A stretch of 4,983 nucleotides of DNA from a virus (IMGVR_UViG_3300029181_000093:1-4983), one strand, 5' to 3'; positions 1 through 4,983 are shown, numbered from the stretch's first letter. Numbers and translations are program-made. The notes: generated by a model not told the origin, from the letters alone.

Positions 1-157
1 CAGCCGGAATATCTGGCGGTGCAATATCGGTACTGTTTGCTGGCAGACCTGTATGAGGCGGAATATATGCGTCACCTTCACCAATAAATTCATTAGTTCC
101 GGCCAGCAGATTATAAATTTTTATGGTCCGTGGTTGTTCACTCATTCTGAATGCCAT
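1..157 (-). CDS. tfa: Tail fibre assembly protein Tfa, N-terminal 52 codons only; the 3' end lies beyond the left window edge
   Basis: Reverse-complement translation from the ATG at 155-157 gives [52 protein letters not shown], matching phage lambda Tfa N-terminus as I recall it. Its ATG overlaps the stf stop in a TAATG arrangement, as in lambda stf-tfa. It is absent from the ORF track because it is cut by the window edge. Confidence 0.9.
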
Positions 158-3100
158 TATGCAAGCCTCACAATATAGTTAAATGCGATGTTTTTGACGG
201 TGTTTTCCGCGTTACCAGCAGCGTTAACGGTGATGGTGTGTCCATGTGAACCAATCGCAACGGAGTGCGTGTGTGCACCAATACCGACAGTATGTGCGTG
301 TGCACCTGCAGATGCTGCTGTGCCGGACAGTGAGTGGCTATGGTTACCATCTGTACTGGTATTAGCTAACGCCCCCGTAGACATACCTACTGAGCCTTGT
401 ACACCCCAGGTATTTTGACCTGAGCTTGTATAACCATATTGATAAGTATCTTTAAAAACACTGGGGTTAAATCGACGGCCATCTCTATGGCTGTGATTAC
501 CAGCTGCATTCGTGCTGCCACTTAAACTATGGGTATGCGCACCAGTGTTATTCGTGGATTTAGTGCCGTAATCAAACGACGATGTGGTTTTCGTCCCCAA
601 ATCCGTACTGGATGCGCTGGCGCTGTGGGTATGCGATTTTATGCCGTCCTGTTCCTGAGACAATACGGCACGACCACTGGCGGGCTTGCCCTTAATCGTC
701 CAGCCACGCATATCAGGGATCACGCCTGACGGATAAGCGGCTGCAAGTTTCGGGTAGGCAGATTTGTCAAAAGTCTGCCCCTGCATCAGGGCATAACCAG
801 ACGGAACGGTATCTGATGGCCACGGGATTGGTGCGCCGACTGGGTAGCTTTCTGGTGGAAGATTTTTCGAGGTATAAACTTCTGCCCAGTCTTCCTCAAA
901 ACCATAACCGTCTCTTGAAGAACGGTAGAACAGACCACCATTTCTGTAATGCGCCTTCATCTGCAGGGTCCGGCAACTTCCGACTCCGGTATAGAAGTTA
1001 ACCAGAATATAGCTGTCGCCAGAGCGGGTGACATTATAAGCGCCTGATTCGGCATTCCAGGGAACGCCACCATCCGCATCGGCATATGTATCCGTTGCCC
1101 TTCTGGCAAAAGCAGCCACATGCGCGGCGGTTAAAGTAATATCTTTGGAACCATCAAACTCAACACCAGAAACCCGTCTTGGCGTTTGCAGCTTTGTTGC
1201 TGTTAATGCATTACCGTTCAGACTTGCGGACAGTTTGGTTCCAATAACCAGTTCGCCGGTTGCGTTATCAATAGCAAACGGTCTTAATGTATTCCAGCCA
1301 CCATAAACATCACCTTGATTGGTAAGCAGCAGGTAAGTTTTAGCGCCATCATTACGCCATAATGCCCCATACTCCCCACCTATCATTCGAATCTGATTAC
1401 CACCACGCGCTACAATTTCGTCTGTGGCAAAAAGTTTTTTGCACGACAAGTTATCGTTAACGATTAACGAATGAGACTCATAAAAACCACGCCCACTCTT
1501 AAAATCAAGGATAACGTCCGCCGCGATACATTCAGTCGCCGGATTTGTTGCCCCAAACTTATAGGTCGTATCATTAACAACGAGATCAGCACCAGGTGCG
1601 GATATTGACAGGCCATCTTCGATAAACGCAAAAACAGGGAAAGCAGCGCCATCAACATAGAACACAGAGCGCAAATCATCGCCCTTATTACTCATCATTA
1701 TTGAGTGGATGGCTCGTTCATTGTTTTGATATTGCCAGAACATTCCATAAGCATAACGCCCCCTGTCAGTCCAGCCACCAGGCATAACAAATCCGTTAAA
1801 CTCGCAGTTATTCATCGGATCGCCTGCGGTTCGCGTTGCCGTGGTGATAATGACCCTTGATGCCAGTTCGCTTACTGAGCCAGCAGAACGCATAACAACA
1901 ACAGGGTAATATTTTCCAGATGTTGCACCTGCAGGAGCGTTAACCCGCACATAACGCATACCACGCTTATCAGCAAAGTCTGTTTTACTGACCGCGTTAA
2001 TGTTGTTCAGGAAGCGTCCCTTATCGGGTATATCCGCACCGTTCTGGTCTTTCTGCAGACGTTTCTCAGCATTGTCATAGGCTGTTTTTACTGCCTTTGG
2101 TGTCGCGGCAAGCGTTTCAGACGTGCTGTTGGTCGCGCTGCTTAGCTGGATTATCCCTTTCTGTGCTGTCGTTGCATCCTGTGCGGTGTATTTCCCGTTA
2201 GCCAGGTCATACGCGGCCTTAACGGCTTTTGGTGTTGCCGCCAGTGACTCGGAAGTGCTGTTAGTCGCACTACTGAGCTGTACTATCCCCTTTTTCGTCG
2301 TGCTCGCATCCTCAAGCGCCACAGCGGATGCAATATCCTCTGCCCGTTTTGCTGCTGTCTCGGCGCGCGTTGCTGCGGATTCTGCCGTACTCTTGCTCTG
2401 TGCTGCCGCCGTCGCACTGCCAGCAGCCTCTGTTGCCTTCGTGGATGCCGTCGTGGCGCTGCCCTTCGCTGCTGACGCTTGTCTGGTCGCCTCATCTTTT
2501 GAAGCAGACGCCGATGAGGCCGATGACGCCGCCGAACTGGCGGACGATGCGGCAGCCGTTTTTGAGGATTCTGCGCTGGTTTCCGACGCTTTCGCGTTCG
2601 TTTCGGATGTCTTTGCTGCGGAAGCTGACCTCGCTGCTGCGCTGGCCTGTTCAGTGGCTTCGCCAGCCTTCGTTGTGGCTGTTGAAGCAGACGATGCGGC
2701 ACTTTCTGCCGACTTTCCGGCAGCGGTGGCACTGGCTGAGGCCTGCCCGGCACTTGTTGATGCGGCACTGGCAGATGATGCAGCCGCTGTTTTTGAGCCT
2801 GCCGCAGCTGAGGCACTCTGTCCCGCTGCCGTTTCAGAAGACCTGGCGTTCGTCTCGGACGTTTTTGCCGCCTTCGCGGAATTTCCTGCCGCCGTTGCCG
2901 AGGAAGCTGCGCTACTGGCGCTCGAGGATGCGTTCGTTTCTGATGATTTTGCCGCCTCTTTTGAAGCCGACGCATCCCGGGCTGAGGTGGCAGCTTCTGA
3001 CGCTTTCGTAGTCGCGGTGGATGCAGAAGTGGCTGCTGATTGTTGTGACGCTGCAGCATTCGTTTCTGACGTTTTCGCGGCACTGGCACTGGTAGCTGCC

Positions 3101-3459
3101 GCGCTTTTTGAGGACTCTGCAGCGGCAGCACTTTTTTCCGCTTCAGTGGCCTTTGTTGATGCCGTTCCTGCGCTGGAAGACGCTGACTGAGCCGACGAAG
3201 CGGCCTGTCCGGCTGACGTGCTGGCTGCGCGTGCTGAGCCTGCAGCATCAGTCGCATGGGTTGCCGCCTCACGGGCAGATGTGCCGGCATCGCCGGCTGA
3301 CTTCTTCGCGGCTGCCGTGTTCTGTGCCACCGCGGACGCGTTACGCGCCACCTCTTCCACCATCAGTTCAAAACGGCGCAGAGCCTCCGGACGGGCCTCA
3401 TCCTCCGTCATGGCACCGAGAAAATCATTCAGCGTACCGGGTCGGGAATCTTCATACAC
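157..3459 (-). CDS. stf: Side tail fibre protein Stf, long mosaic variant of 1100 aa, N-terminally truncated relative to lambda Stf
   Basis: A 3303-nt minus-strand ORF. Residues 1-40 ([13 protein letters not shown]...[12 protein letters not shown]) align with lambda Stf from about residue 79. It is followed by an Ala/Ser/Thr-rich shaft with recurring KTSETNA motifs, two tandem copies of the phage fibre repeat KGI(V/I)[11 protein letters not shown](S/T)LAATPKAVK, and a C-terminal region with [13 protein letters not shown]...[16 protein letters not shown] and clustered HxH motifs, ending [11 protein letters not shown] like lambda Stf and T4 gp37. The first codon is GTG; start choice is uncertain because the next in-frame ATG is at codon 17. 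Confidence 0.88.
2068..2292 (-). repeat. Tandem duplication (2 copies of about 132 bp, 44 aa) of the phage tail-fibre repeat motif inside stf
   Basis: Stf residues 390-433 and 434-464 are near-identical ([29 protein letters not shown] versus [29 protein letters not shown]). The corresponding DNA shows a clear direct repeat. This is coding, not CRISPR. Confidence 0.8.
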
Positions 3460-3652
3460 GGTGATGGTCCCGGCATGTGACGGCGGGAACGGGCGCTGAA
3501 TAATGCTCTTTCCGCTCTGCCATCACTTCAGCATCCGGACGTTCGCCAATTTTCGCCTCCCACGTCTCACCGAGCGTGGTGTTTACGAAGGTTTTACGTT
3601 TTCCCGTACTCGCACCGAAAATGTCAGCCAGCTGCTTTTTGTTGACTTCCAT
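3452..3652 (-). pseudogene. nu1: Chimeric terminase remnant: small terminase Nu1 codons 1-15 fused in frame to about 41 codons from the interior of large terminase gene A, terminating out of frame inside stf-homologous sequence
   Basis: The translation begins MEVNKKQLADIFGAS, the lambda Nu1 N-terminus, with lambda-like upstream sequence and RBS. From codon 16 it reads [41 protein letters not shown], which I recognise as an internal segment of lambda gpA. The last 9 codons ([10 protein letters not shown]) are stf DNA read in the wrong frame. Breakpoints are at about 3605-3608 (Nu1/A) and about 3484-3490 (A/stf). Confidence 0.75.
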
Positions 3653-3674
3653 TGTTCATTCCACGGACAAAAAC

Positions 3675-3795
3675 AGAGAAAGGAAACGACAGAGGCCAAA
3701 AAGCTCGCTTTCAGCACCTGTCGTTTCCTTTCTTTTCAGGGGGTATTTTAAATAAATACATTAAGTTACGACGAAGAAGAACGGAAACACCTTAA
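3675..3795 (-). other. cosB-like terminase binding region with three R elements (R1 3677..3688, R2 3722..3733 inverted, R3 3778..3789)
   Basis: The reverse complement is near-identical to the lambda left end between cosN and the Nu1 start. The R1 and R2 regions form a perfect 15-bp inverted repeat (gaaaggaaacgacag at 3678..3692 and ctgtcgtttcctttc at 3718..3732). R3 carries one substitution relative to lambda as I recall it. Confidence 0.8.
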
Positions 3796-3829
3796 ACCGG
3801 AAAATTTTCATAAATAGCGAAAACCCGCG

Positions 3830-3841
3830 AGGTCGCCGCCC
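3830..3841 (-). other. cosN cohesive-end site (12-nt GGGCGGCGACCT on the minus strand)
   Basis: The plus strand reads aggtcgccgccc, whose reverse complement is GGGCGGCGACCT, the lambda cohesive end. It is flanked on one side by CGCGGGTTTTCGCTATTTATGAAAATTTTCCGG (lambda left end) and on the other by lambda right-end sequence ending ...CGACAGGTTACG. Confidence 0.85.
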
Positions 3842-3892
3842 CGTAACCTGTCGGATCGCCGGAAAGGACCCGCAAAATGATAATAATTATCA
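3842..3892 (-). other. cosQ-side right-end region of cos, including a 15-bp palindrome TGATAATAATTATCA (3878..3892)
   Basis: This matches the lambda right-end terminal sequence with several substitutions. The palindrome is seen directly and has a near-identical counterpart in lambda. The exact cosQ element boundaries are not resolved here. Confidence 0.6.
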
Positions 3893-4040
3893 TCTGCATG
3901 TCACAACGTGCATCTACGCCATCAAACCACGTCAAATAATCAATTATGACGCAGGTATCATATTAATTGATCTGCATCAACTTAACGTAAAAACAACTTC
4001 AGACAATACAAATCAGCGACACTAAATACGGGACAACCTC

Positions 4041-4274
4041 ATGTCAACGAAGAACAGAACCCGCAGAACAACAATCCGCAACATCCGCTTTCCTAACCAA
4101 ATGATTGAACAAATTAACATCGCTCTTGATCAAAAAGGGTCCGGGAATTTCTCAGCCTGGGTCATTGAAGCCTGCCGCCGGAGACTGTGCTCAGAAAAAA
4201 GAGTTTCTCCTGAAGCAAACAAAGAAAAGAGTGACATTACTGAATTGCTCAGAAAACAGATCAGACCAGATTGA
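4041..4274 (+). CDS. Small basic ribbon-helix-helix (Arc/CopG-like) putative DNA-binding protein, 77 aa
   Basis: The ORF starts about 200 bp from cosN and is transcribed away from cos. The N-terminal 50 aa (MSTKNRTRRTTIRNIRFPNQMIEQINIALDQKGSGNFSAWVIEACRRRL) follow a beta-strand, helix, G-S turn, helix pattern typical of RHH folds, and match the lambda right-end ORF as I recall it. The C-terminal tail (CSEKRVSPEANKEKSDITELLRKQIRPD) differs from the lambda counterpart. No strong Shine-Dalgarno is seen. Confidence 0.65.
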   Translation: MSTKNRTRRTTIRNIRFPNQMIEQINIALDQKGSGNFSAWVIEACRRRLCSEKRVSPEANKEKSDITELLRKQIRPD

Positions 4275-4330
4275 AGCAATTTAGATAATCGTGCAGACTA
4301 CGCCCCTCATATCACATGGAAGGTACCACA

Positions 4331-4741
4331 ATGGCTCAGGTTGCCATTTTTAAACAAATATTCGATAAAGTGCGAAATAATTTAAACTATCACTGGTTTT
4401 ATTCTGAACTAAAACGTCACAATGTCTCACATTACATTTACTATTTAGCTACAGAGAATATTCATCTTGTTCTTGAAAACGATAATACGGTTTTAATAAA
4501 AGGACAGGGTAAGGTTGTAAATGTAAGATTTTCAAAAAATAAATGCCTTATAGAAGCCACCTTAAAAGGATTCAAATCAGGAGAGTTATCATTTTACGAA
4601 TACAGGAAAAATCTTGCTACAGCAGGGGTTTTCAGATGGATTACAAATATCCACGAAAACAAAAGGTATTACTATACCTTTGATAATTCATTACTCTTTA
4701 CTGAGAACATTCAGAACACTACACAAATATTTCCGCACTAA
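4331..4741 (+). CDS. ybcV: DUF1398-family protein resembling YbcV of E. coli cryptic prophage DLP12, 136 aa
   Basis: The ATG at 4331 is preceded by GGAAGG (4318..4323) at 7-nt spacing. The ORF-track start at 4316 has no RBS. The product ([18 protein letters not shown]...[31 protein letters not shown]) matches my recollection of YbcV (136 aa). The gene is strongly AT-rich compared with the neighbouring stf. Confidence 0.75.
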
Positions 4742-4893
4742 ATCATAACGTCCGGTTTCTTCCGTGCCAGAACCGGACTCGCTGGCATGATGAAATATGT
4801 GTACCCGGTAACCCCGGTGTGCATCGTTTTTGATTATTCCCGCACACTCGCGCAGAAGGAGTTCCCCGTCGGGCTACGGTCTCTGTTAATACG

Positions 4894-4983
4894 GGAACTC
4901 AGCCTGATGTTTTTCAATAAAGACATACTTCATTTCAGGCGCTTCGCGAAGTATGTCGCGGCCTTTTGGAGGATAGCCAGCTC
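4894..4983 (-). mobile_element. IS3-family insertion sequence fragment: 3' end of orfA (insE-like, 4930..4983, partial) and first 13 codons of orfB (insF-like, ATG at 4931..4933), truncated at about 4894
   Basis: The minus strand encodes ...ELAILQKAATYFAKRLK-stop, then ATGAAGTATGTCTTTATTGAAAAACATCAGGCTGAGTTC (MKYVFIEKHQAEF) in the -1 frame with the typical AAATGA overlap. I recognise this as the IS3 orfA/orfB junction. Homology stops abruptly after orfB codon 13, followed by PY-stop, so most of orfB and the far end of the IS are missing. Confidence 0.8.

What the first reader, a model, noticed from the sequence alone, without database searches (positions are those of the whole stretch)
4041..4741. 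AT-rich two-gene accessory pair (RHH-like protein plus DUF1398/YbcV-like protein) beside cos
Both genes are transcribed away from cos on the plus strand. The DUF1398-like gene is markedly more AT-rich than stf, suggesting horizontally acquired accessory DNA that may be H-NS-silenced. The RHH-like protein shares its first 50 residues with the lambda right-end ORF but has a different C-terminal tail. A small RHH DNA binder next to an uncharacterised protein is the typical layout of regulator-effector or antitoxin-toxin pairs, but neither function is known. This is the most system-like candidate in the window and remains speculative.
Basis: inference. Interest (0 to 1): 0.5.

Follow-up and report, generated by a model that had tools for sequence, protein, structure and literature searches.

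The report
Known prophage genes ynfO and ydfO
The two genes are real but already catalogued (E. coli prophage genes ynfO and ydfO, also present in phage lambda), and comparison across genomes shows they are separate accessory genes that happen to be adjacent here, not an obligate toxin-antitoxin or regulator-effector system.

Summary
Window 4041-4274 (+) encodes a 77-aa DUF3950/YlcI-YnfO protein. Window 4331-4741 (+) encodes a 136-aa DUF1398 protein with 31% GC. Both read away from cosN (3830-3841). They are orthologues of K-12 Qin ynfO-ydfO, in the same stf-noh-ynfO-ydfO order.

- DUF3950 occurs without DUF1398 in at least 111 phage records and in 53 of 80 IMG/VR loci. In Stx phages it sits alone and is followed by a terminator-like hairpin.
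- DUF1398 occurs without DUF3950 at K-12 ycgX and in 20 of 20 distant enterobacterial loci.
- In lambda and DLP12 an opposite-strand gene (lambdap79/ybcW) separates the two genes.

DUF1398, together with the DUF3950 tail, fills a variable slot. The slot lies between a nearly invariant 50-aa DUF3950 domain and a conserved 150-bp flank.

Both genes are under purifying selection. DUF3950 has ribbon-helix-helix topology, but no comparison reaches significance. DUF1398 has an orphan fold (only PDB 2HH8). No PADLOC defence model gave a significant match to either protein.

Best reading: accessory "moron" genes in the lysis-packaging junction, with function still unknown. Low novelty and low interest.

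The parts
3830..3841 (-). cosN, the 12-nt cohesive-end sequence GGGCGGCGACCT of a lambda-type phage
   Evidence: Single exact match, with none in 200 shuffles. Window 3607-4203 is 96% identical to the lambda right end and Nu1 start.
4041..4274 (+). ynfO orthologue: 77-aa DUF3950 / YlcI-YnfO family protein. It has a basic N-terminal arm, a putative ribbon-helix-helix domain (residues ~12-54) and a Qin-type C-terminal tail.
   Evidence: Pfam PF13132 E 5e-21, NCBIfam NF041551 and phrog_949. It is 94% identical to K-12 YnfO. pN/pS is 0.16 over codons 1-50. Homology with Stx-phage copies starts exactly at the ATG. The AF2 model has an extended segment 12-18 and helices 19-32 and 37-54.
4041..4203 (+). 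Conserved module coding for the nearly invariant DUF3950 domain. This is the left anchor of the variable slot.
   Evidence: 96-97% identical to lambda and DLP12, and 86% identical to BP-4795/2851 over 4041-4181. There are 32 invariant residues in 14 diverse sequences.
4204..4257 (+). Qin-type junction. This 54-nt stretch replaces 613 bp of lambda that carry lambdap79/ybcW. It encodes most of the distinct YnfO tail.
   Evidence: blastn breakpoints are window 4203/4258 against lambda locus L001 2097/2711. At least 7 different tails occur on the same domain.
4318..4323 (+). Shine-Dalgarno-like GGAAGG, 7 nt upstream of the DUF1398 start codon
   Evidence: Read directly from the sequence. It supports the 136-aa start used in K-12.
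4331..4741 (+). ydfO/ybcV-type gene: 136-aa DUF1398 protein. This is the AT-rich (31% GC) cargo gene of the slot.
4742..4897 (.). Conserved non-coding flank and right anchor of the slot. It is shared with lambda, DLP12, Kati and Stx phages that lack DUF1398. In HK629 its distal end carries the annotated bor promoter.
   Evidence: Alignments and blastn. No Rfam family matched.
4898..4983 (-). Internal fragment of IS3 that truncates the prophage here. It is context, not part of the pair.
   Evidence: 100% identical to annotated IS3 transposase genes in 3,998 E. coli genomes.
3452..3652 (-). Remnant ORF that fuses Nu1 residues 1-15 to a gpA fragment. It shows that this is a decayed prophage. It is context, not part of the pair.
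   Evidence: Pfam Phage_Nu1 positions 1-16 and GpA_nuclease positions 36-75. ORF listing.

Best explanation
The pair is the Qin-type version of the accessory ("moron") region that lambdoid phages carry between the lysis genes and the packaging genes. This region is read antisense to the late operon. It holds two separable genes.

(1) ynfO encodes a small basic protein. Its nearly invariant 50-residue domain most likely folds as a dimeric ribbon-helix-helix DNA binder. By analogy with Arc, Mnt and CopG, it would repress or tune its own leftward transcription unit. This gene is the constant anchor of the region.

(2) The DUF1398 gene is exchangeable AT-rich cargo. It sits in a slot bounded on one side by the 3' end of the DUF3950 domain and on the other by a conserved 150-bp flank. 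In Stx phages the slot holds no gene. In this window and in Qin it holds DUF1398. In lambda and DLP12 it holds lambdap79/ybcW plus DUF1398.

In this window the two genes are 56 nt apart, and no promoter or terminator was detected between them. They are probably co-transcribed, so the small protein may control DUF1398 expression simply because of where it sits.

DUF1398 is a compact non-enzymatic alpha/beta protein with an orphan fold. It probably acts by binding a partner in the lysogen, giving a stress-related or phage-host conflict phenotype. It is not a toxin.

Shown: gene identity, coding constraint, the mosaic borders and the lack of obligate co-occurrence. Inferred: DNA binding, autoregulation, co-transcription and any cellular role.
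For: Identity and synteny with K-12 Qin (stfQ-nohA-ynfO-ydfO). Comparison with DLP12 and lambda.

Decoupling of the two genes:
- tblastn finds DUF3950 in 154 phage records and DUF1398 in 43.
- In BP-4795 and phage 2851, DUF3950 stands alone between Rz and HNH-TerS-TerL. In BP-4795 a terminator-like hairpin on the same strand follows 132 nt later.
- Of 80 IMG/VR loci found with the Stx-type query, 58 have DUF3950 without DUF1398. In 53 of these, at least 1.5 kb of downstream sequence was available.
- None of 20 distant DUF1398 loci has a DUF3950 ORF within 5 kb.
- ycgX is a solo copy of DUF1398.
- E. coli strains carry up to 12 DUF3950 copies but at most 6 DUF1398 places.

Slot borders.

Coding constraint: pN/pS is 0.16 for DUF3950 and about 0.3 for DUF1398.

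Ribbon-helix-helix topology:
- The AF2 model has the expected strand-helix-helix order.
- The only PDB profile hit is a CopG-family protein, aligned in register (E 1.4).
- hhalign against Arc, Mnt, CopG and 9kkd gives P 0.0017 in the canonical register.

Orphan fold of DUF1398. No significant PADLOC hit.

Literature:
- Lambda escapers of the Vulcan defence system lose lambdap79 through what the authors interpret as recombination with Qin. They would then carry this Qin-type arrangement and remain viable (bioRxiv 10.64898/2026.09.04.749371).
- lambdap78 is non-essential by CRISPRi (PMC10695390).
- ydfO mRNA is inducible, and YdfO overexpression is reported to increase oxidative-stress resistance (PMC4077768).
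- ybcW-ylcI is listed among convergent overlapping-transcript pairs detected from RNA-seq coverage (PMC12288877).
Against: - No sigma-70-like promoter passed the scan on the + strand upstream of 4041, and no intrinsic terminator was found after 4741. The transcription unit is therefore inferred.
- The census is almost entirely Escherichia and its lambdoid phages. Very distant DUF3950 relatives were not sampled, and the HMM used to call DUF3950 absent was built from close homologues.
- When both genes are present they are always in the same order and orientation (175 of 175 loci with both). Some functional link within this arrangement is therefore not excluded.
- The Qin-type tail is itself conserved (pN/pS 0.13, low power). 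That could reflect a partner-binding role.
Confidence: 0.68

Rival explanations
1. Dedicated regulator-effector operon. YnfO is the specific transcriptional regulator of ydfO, and the two evolved to work together. The lambda/DLP12 layout would be a derived disruption.
For: The genes share a strand, are 56 nt apart, and no promoter or terminator was detected between them. The order and orientation are the same in all 175 loci that have both genes. The ~210 bp upstream of the lambda DUF1398 leader (L001 2501-2710, the presumed ybcV promoter region) is missing here, because homology resumes only 73 nt before the ATG. ydfO therefore probably depends on upstream transcription.
Against: The DUF3950 domain is nearly invariant across phages that have no DUF1398 at all. 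DUF1398 is kept without DUF3950 in ycgX and in 20 of 20 distant loci. In lambda and DLP12 the genes are separated by a convergent gene, and ybcV shares a divergent intergenic region with ybcW that contains a PdhR site.
Confidence: 0.17
2. Type II toxin-antitoxin pair. YnfO would be a ribbon-helix-helix antitoxin with a toxin-binding tail, and the DUF1398 protein would be the toxin.
Against: Co-occurrence fails in both directions. PADLOC, Pfam and NCBIfam returned no toxin or defence family for the DUF1398 protein. Its fold has no enzymatic or toxin neighbour. YdfO was produced for an NMR structure, which implies mg-scale overexpression, presumably in E. coli (my inference from PDB 2HH8). Its overexpression is reported as beneficial. 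The lambda gene is dispensable. The 56-nt gap is unlike the overlapping or abutting genes typical of type II modules (my own knowledge).
Confidence: 0.03
3. The DUF3950 protein serves the lysis-packaging junction itself. For example, it could control read-through of late transcription or act near cos. DUF1398 would be an unrelated passenger.
For: The gene's position is conserved immediately before the packaging module in phages with two unrelated packaging systems, Nu1/A and HNH-TerS-TerL. It always lies antisense to the late operon. Its domain is almost invariant among phages of different immunity, which suggests a shared target.
Against: To my knowledge, lambda packaging needs only about 200 bp of cos in cis. 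The upstream DNA is unrelated between the two phage types, so no shared nearby operator is evident. No published phenotype for the DUF3950 gene was found. A conserved position may only reflect a permissive insertion site.
Confidence: 0.1
4. The 77-aa ORF is not translated. On this view its conservation reflects a DNA or RNA element next to cos.
For: The Shine-Dalgarno sequence is weak (GGGA, 7 nt before the ATG). The ORF is unannotated in the lambda reference records. No promoter was detected.
Against: Variable sites fall 14, 15 and 35 at codon positions 1, 2 and 3. pS is 0.36 against pN 0.06. Homology between phage types starts exactly at the ATG, and the Stx-type copy has a strong GAGGA ribosome-binding site. 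The gene persists beside a different packaging module without lambda cos.
Confidence: 0.02

Closest known systems
E. coli K-12 Qin prophage genes ynfO (b4533) and ydfO (b1549)
   Same: Same two families, same order, orientation and spacing, and same neighbours (stf, noh/Nu1 remnant). DNA is 90% identical over window 3607-4779. YnfO is 94% identical.
   Different: The DUF1398 protein here is a different allele: pS 0.46 and pN 0.13 against K-12 ydfO. This allele is 100% identical to the one in the phages Kati, Chlobot, PhiR49_1 and ev099. Downstream, this window has the lambda-type flank and then IS3, not gnsB.
Phage lambda right end and DLP12: ylcI - ybcW/lambdap79 - ybcV/lambdap78 - bor
   Same: Same cos-proximal position and leftward orientation. 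The DUF3950 domain matches at 48 of 50 residues. The DUF1398 protein is 76% identical. The conserved flank downstream is the same.
   Different: Lambda and DLP12 carry an extra 613 bp with the opposite-strand gene lambdap79/ybcW, which is reported to activate the Vulcan NADase defence system. Their YlcI is 64 aa with another tail. There, DUF1398 has its own upstream region.
Stx-converting phages (BP-4795, 2851): solo DUF3950 gene
   Same: The DUF3950 domain is the same (86% DNA identity over 141 nt). The antisense position between the lysis and packaging genes is the same, and so is the right-hand flank.
   Different: There is no DUF1398. The slot holds about 230 bp of AT-rich non-coding DNA with a terminator-like hairpin. 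The packaging module is HNH-TerS-TerL, not Nu1/A.
Arc, Mnt and CopG ribbon-helix-helix repressors
   Same: The size matches. The N-terminal strand motif NIRFP aligns with Arc NLRWP. A glycine-containing turn precedes helix B, and the overall order is strand-helix-helix.
   Different: There is no significant sequence or fold score. Dimerisation, DNA binding and an operator are all untested. Pfam files the protein as DUF3950, not as a ribbon-helix-helix family.
Phage morons such as lambda bor and lom
   Same: The cassette lies between functional modules. Its orientation opposes the late operon. Its base composition differs from the neighbours. It shows presence/absence polymorphism among close relatives with sharp borders.
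   Different: Its own promoter and terminator, which are part of the usual moron definition, were not found here. No lysogenic-conversion phenotype is established.

Membership tests
DUF3950 / YlcI-YnfO family (Pfam PF13132, NCBIfam NF041551) | Score above the curated cut-off of the family models | tested here: met
   Pfam 74.7 bits against a cut-off of 25. NCBIfam 35.7 bits against a cut-off of 30.
DUF1398 (Pfam PF07166), YdfO-like fold | Score above the Pfam cut-off over the whole domain | tested here: met
   147.1 bits against a cut-off of 22, covering profile positions 1-119 of 119.
DUF1398 (Pfam PF07166), YdfO-like fold | Same three-dimensional fold as the solved member 2HH8 | tested here: met
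Ribbon-helix-helix (Arc/MetJ/CopG) DNA-binding superfamily | Strand-helix-turn-helix topology with a glycine-containing turn before helix B | tested here: met
   AF2 model: extended segment 12-18, helix 19-32, loop KGSGNFS, helix 37-54. pLDDT is about 82 in the helices.
Ribbon-helix-helix (Arc/MetJ/CopG) DNA-binding superfamily | Statistically significant sequence-profile or structural similarity to known members | tested here: inconclusive
Ribbon-helix-helix (Arc/MetJ/CopG) DNA-binding superfamily | Dimer with an intersubunit beta-sheet that binds a repeated operator | not testable with these tools
   No multimer prediction or binding assay is available. Only short repeats are present upstream of the gene.
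Type II toxin-antitoxin module | The two genes co-occur as a conserved pair across genomes | tested here: not met
   DUF3950 without DUF1398: at least 111 phage records and 53 of 80 IMG/VR loci. DUF1398 without DUF3950: ycgX and 20 of 20 distant loci.
Type II toxin-antitoxin module | The downstream protein belongs to a toxin family or has a toxin-like fold | tested here: not met
   Pfam and NCBIfam returned no toxin family. The only PADLOC match is a non-significant one to Csx23 (E 0.023). The fold is an orphan. No dedicated toxin-antitoxin library was searched.
Type II toxin-antitoxin module | Toxicity of the downstream gene that is neutralised by the upstream gene | not testable with these tools
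   Literature only: a beneficial YdfO overexpression phenotype is cited, and lambdap78 is dispensable.
Phage moron (accessory cassette) | Presence/absence between closely related phages, with sharp borders at gene boundaries | tested here: met
   The borders are at window ~4181-4203 and ~4742-4751 when compared with lambda, DLP12 and Stx phages.
Phage moron (accessory cassette) | Base composition distinct from the flanking phage genes | tested here: met
   31.1% GC against 53.2% for stf. Distant DUF1398 genes have a median of 41.7% against 50.6% for their flanks.
Phage moron (accessory cassette) | Own promoter and terminator, and expression from the prophage | tested here: inconclusive
   The consensus scan found no + strand promoter or terminator here. 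A terminator-like hairpin follows the solo gene in BP-4795. Published data show that ydfO mRNA is measurable and inducible, and ybcW-ylcI is listed as an overlapping-transcript pair.
Known anti-phage defence systems (PADLOC-DB 2.0) | Match to any defence-system protein model | tested here: not met
   YnfO has 0 hits. DUF1398 has only a weak match to Csx23 (E 0.023, 12.7 bits).

The most novel reading that the evidence does not exclude
The nearly invariant DUF3950 domain gene may mark a hot-swappable cargo slot shared by lambdoid phages. The slot lies close to the right end of the packaged chromosome, which from my recollection is the end that enters the cell first. It reads inward from that end. 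Its cargo includes lambdap79, now reported as the trigger of the Vulcan NADase defence system, and DUF1398. These could be early-acting players in phage-host immune conflict, with the ribbon-helix-helix-like protein as their common regulator acting in trans across co-resident prophages (up to 12 copies per genome). DUF1398 would then be an unrecognised counter-defence or defence-decoy protein with an orphan fold.
Probability: 0.1. Interest if true: 0.6.

Novelty: already known. Interest (0 to 1): 0.15.

Why it matters
It matters little as a discovery. Both genes are named y-genes of E. coli K-12, they are present in phage lambda, and one has a solved structure.

The useful results are these:
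- A tempting "small DNA binder plus unknown protein equals system" reading does not survive neighbourhood analysis.
- The region is better described as a conserved anchor gene plus a variable cargo slot.
- That slot also holds lambdap79, a newly reported defence trigger.
- The lambda reference annotation lacks the YlcI-like ORF.
- The "head protein" label for DUF1398 is unsupported.

If the cargo-slot idea were pursued, it could give a function to two long-standing orphan families.

Tried and rejected
- **Toxin-antitoxin reading:** rejected on co-occurrence, fold and literature.
- **Defence-system membership:** PADLOC gave no significant match.
- **Known RNA in or around the pair:** an Rfam scan of 3600-4983 found nothing near any gathering score.
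- **Promoter and terminator for the unit:** the consensus scan found no + strand site, and manual inspection of 3900-4040 found only poor hexamers.
- **Operator search:** only short repeats and one 8-bp palindrome (3877-3893) lie upstream. None is convincing as an operator.
- **First genome-collection query:** A narrower alignment worked.
- **First IMG/VR scans:** the window proteins as queries returned only near-identical loci, which were uninformative for co-occurrence. The Stx-type query fixed this.
- **H-NS silencing:** a literature search gave nothing specific. The report of >1000-fold up-regulation of ybcV/ybcW on T4 MotB expression is confounded by concurrent up-regulation of lambda DE3 genes.
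- **"Head protein" (PHROG 413):** rejected as a label without support.
- **Mutations reported in ylcI:** two evolution studies list them, but no functional role is shown and they may be paralogue mapping effects.

Full report
**What is in the sequence**

The window is a decayed lambda-type prophage, and its plus strand corresponds to lambda's minus strand. From left to right it contains:
- an stf tail-fibre gene that lacks its first ~76 codons (157-3459, minus strand);
- a remnant ORF that fuses Nu1 residues 1-15 to a gpA fragment (3452-3652, minus strand);
- cosN, an exact GGGCGGCGACCT at 3830-3841 on the minus strand, with none found in 200 shuffles;
- the two genes of the finding;
- a 156-bp conserved flank (4742-4897);
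- an internal IS3 fragment (4898-4983).

The first gene (4041-4274, 77 aa) matches Pfam DUF3950 (E 5e-21), NCBIfam YlcI_YnfO_N and phrog_949. The second gene (4331-4741, 136 aa) matches Pfam DUF1398 (E 3e-43) and matches K-12 YdfO, PDB 2HH8, at E 2.9e-67. An in-frame ATG at 4316 would add five residues. The GGAAGG 7 nt before the ATG at 4331 and the K-12 annotation favour the 136-aa form. GC content is 31.1% for DUF1398, 43.6% for the small gene and 53.2% for stf.

**Identity**

K-12 MG1655 has the same layout in the Qin prophage: stfQ, nohA, ynfO (b4533, 77 aa), ydfO (b1549, 136 aa). DNA is 90% identical over window 3607-4779. DLP12 and lambda carry a variant: ylcI (64 aa), then ybcW/lambdap79 on the opposite strand, then ybcV/lambdap78, then bor.

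It is a 64-aa ORF on lambda's minus strand, identical to DLP12 YlcI. It matches the window protein at 48 of the first 50 residues. It is not annotated in J02459 or NC_001416.

DNA homology between the window and lambda runs 3607-4203 (96%) and resumes at 4258-4897 (83%). The 54 nt in between replace 613 bp of lambda that contain lambdap79. The different C-terminal tail is therefore a mosaic junction inside the 3' end of the gene. The exact allele of this window (99-100% identical) is carried by the phages Kati, Chlobot, PhiR49_1 and ev099.

**Are both genes real?**

Across 37 distinct alleles of the first 150 nt of the DUF3950 gene, variable sites fall 14, 15 and 35 at codon positions 1, 2 and 3. 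pS is 0.36, pN is 0.06 and pN/pS is 0.16. Homology between lambda-type and Stx-type phages begins exactly at the ATG. The upstream DNA is unrelated, and the Stx copy has a strong GAGGA ribosome-binding site. DUF1398 alleles give pN/pS of about 0.3. Both are therefore protein-coding genes under constraint. Published work measures inducible ydfO mRNA and lists ybcW-ylcI among convergent overlapping-transcript pairs found from RNA-seq coverage.

**Is the pair a system?**

DUF3950 without DUF1398:
- In 50,697 phage records, tblastn finds DUF3950 in 154 and DUF1398 in 43. All 43 are lambda-like.
- In the Stx phages BP-4795 and 2851, the DUF3950 gene stands alone between Rz and an HNH-TerS-TerL packaging module. 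In BP-4795 a terminator-like hairpin on the same strand follows 132 nt later.
- Of 80 IMG/VR loci retrieved with the Stx-type protein, 58 have DUF3950 but no DUF1398. In 53 of these, at least 1.5 kb of downstream sequence was available.
- E. coli genomes hold up to 12 DUF3950 copies. O157:H7 strains have eight or nine DUF3950 copies, and one O157:H7 strain listed has a single DUF1398 place.

DUF1398 without DUF3950:
- K-12 ycgX is a solo DUF1398 gene beside bluR.
- None of 20 distant DUF1398 loci has a DUF3950 ORF within 5 kb or a small same-strand ORF directly upstream. These loci come from Kluyvera, Klebsiella, Salmonella diarizonae, Raoultella and Pseudocitrobacter. The caveat is that the HMM used was built from close homologues.

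When both genes are present they always have the same order and orientation. So a positional link exists, but not an obligate one.

**A better description: anchor plus slot**

Stx phages share with the window only two pieces. One is the DUF3950 domain (window 4041-4181, 86% identical). The other is about 100 bp of the flank after DUF1398 (4799-4897, 88% identical). The multiple alignment extends that similarity back to a few nucleotides after the DUF1398 stop codon.

The region between these anchors is variable. In Stx phages it is about 230 bp of AT-rich non-coding DNA with a terminator-like hairpin. Here and in Qin it is DUF1398. In lambda and DLP12 it is lambdap79/ybcW plus DUF1398. At least seven different tails of 11-27 aa follow the nearly invariant 50-residue domain.

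A 2026 preprint reports that lambda-vir mutants escaping the Vulcan NADase defence system have lost lambdap79. The authors attribute this to probable recombination with Qin. That exchange would produce the arrangement seen in this window, and the escapers are viable phages. CRISPRi scores lambdap78 as non-essential.

**What the proteins look like**

DUF3950: the AF2 model has an extended segment at 12-18, a helix at 19-32, the loop KGSGNFS and a helix at 37-54. pLDDT is about 82 in the helices and about 55 in the tail. Several tests agree in direction:
- The only PDB profile hit is a CopG-family ribbon-helix-helix protein aligned in register (E 1.4).
- hhalign against Arc, Mnt, CopG and 9kkd aligns NIRFP with Arc NLRWP at P 0.0017, but with probability 15%.
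- Foldseek's top hits are TCP domains (E > 4).

The topology fits, but no test is significant. "RHH-like" is therefore reasonable but unproven.

**Mechanism**

The most likely reading has two parts. YnfO is a small dimeric DNA binder that tunes its own leftward transcription unit in the lysogen. This is an inference by analogy with Arc, Mnt and CopG. DUF1398 is exchangeable AT-rich cargo that here lies 56 nt downstream, so it is probably co-transcribed. No promoter or terminator was found between the genes, and the ~210 bp upstream of the lambda DUF1398 leader is absent here. DUF1398 would act by binding some partner.

Published hints are limited to these:
- transient induction by an ionic liquid, and a cited oxidative-stress benefit on overexpression;
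- PdhR-dependent ybcV/ybcW expression;
- induction in a sabinene-tolerant strain;
- a TraDIS-only "essential" call for ydfO.

H-NS silencing could not be tested. Low GC relative to the flanks in every host is consistent with it. The MotB result is confounded by concurrent up-regulation of lambda DE3 genes.

**Verdict**

The genes are real, AT-rich accessory genes, and the small one is RHH-like. The pair is not a conserved two-gene system and is very unlikely to be a toxin-antitoxin module. Both genes are already catalogued, so novelty is "already known" and interest is low.

The most novel reading that remains open is that the DUF3950 anchor marks a cargo slot for defence-related genes near what I recall to be the first-injected end of the chromosome. 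I give this about 10%.

Noticed in passing
window 4742-4897: A segment of about 150 bp directly after the DUF1398 stop codon is conserved in lambda, DLP12 and Kati. It is also conserved in Stx phages that lack DUF1398. It has 1-nt indels and no consistent ORF, so it looks non-coding. In HK629 its far end carries the annotated bor promoter. Its own function is unknown.
   Followed up: partly
window 4898-4983 (junction at 4897/4898): An internal piece of IS3, not an IS end, abuts the conserved flank. A deletion has therefore removed the rest of IS3 and the lysis side of the prophage. The exact window arrangement is not contiguous in any of 5,426 complete E. coli genomes.
   Followed up: partly
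window 3452-3652 and 157-3459 (minus strand): One remnant ORF joins Nu1 residues 1-15 to a gpA endonuclease fragment. It overlaps the start of an stf gene that lacks its first ~76 codons. Together they record several deletions that removed the whole head and tail gene block.
   Followed up: no
window 3877-3893: A perfect palindrome, ATGATAAT-A-ATTATCAT, lies between cosN and the ynfO start. A promoter-like site on the minus strand (GTGACA-16-TATCAT, 3904-3877) overlaps it and points towards cos. Lambda has a near-identical stretch.
   Followed up: no
L001 1935-2129 (lambda DE3); NC_001416 about 48303-48109, complement: Phage lambda encodes a 64-aa YlcI-type DUF3950 ORF about 200 bp from its right end. 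The ORF is not annotated in the J02459 or NC_001416 records.
   Followed up: yes
window 4331-4741; NC_001416 lambdap78: PHROG 413 labels DUF1398 as "head protein", and several records, including RefSeq lambda, carry that label. Nothing here supports a virion role. The older label "putative envelope protein" also rests on no evidence seen here. The annotated 177-aa lambdap78 start (GTG) is probably too far upstream, because the homologues start at MAQVAIF.
   Followed up: partly
L162 3229-3460 (BP-4795): In Stx phages the slot after the DUF3950 gene holds about 230 bp of AT-rich non-coding DNA. It includes a terminator-like hairpin on the same strand (9-bp stem followed by seven T). That suggests a single-gene transcription unit there.
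   Followed up: partly
L164-L171, L177, L181, L183 (Kluyvera and relatives), about 250-470 bp upstream of the DUF1398 gene: A conserved 74-aa ORF (MLEGYFDLD...) lies on the opposite strand, divergent from the distant DUF1398 homologues. It was not identified.
   Followed up: no
protein search results P0014, P0029, P0063, P0093 and many 3.5-kb ENA contigs: YlcI and DUF1398 sequences attributed to Staphylococcus, Bacillus, Klebsiella, a spider and a "Campylobacter phage" are near-identical to lambda or E. coli. They are probably contamination, for example from lambda control DNA used in sequencing.
   Followed up: no
K-12 ydfO (literature, PMC5821084): ydfO is listed as "essential only by TraDIS", which means few transposon insertions were recovered in it. 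The paper treats TraDIS-only calls as disagreeing with the single-gene deletion libraries. The reason was not examined. An AT-rich, protein-bound region is one possibility.
   Followed up: no
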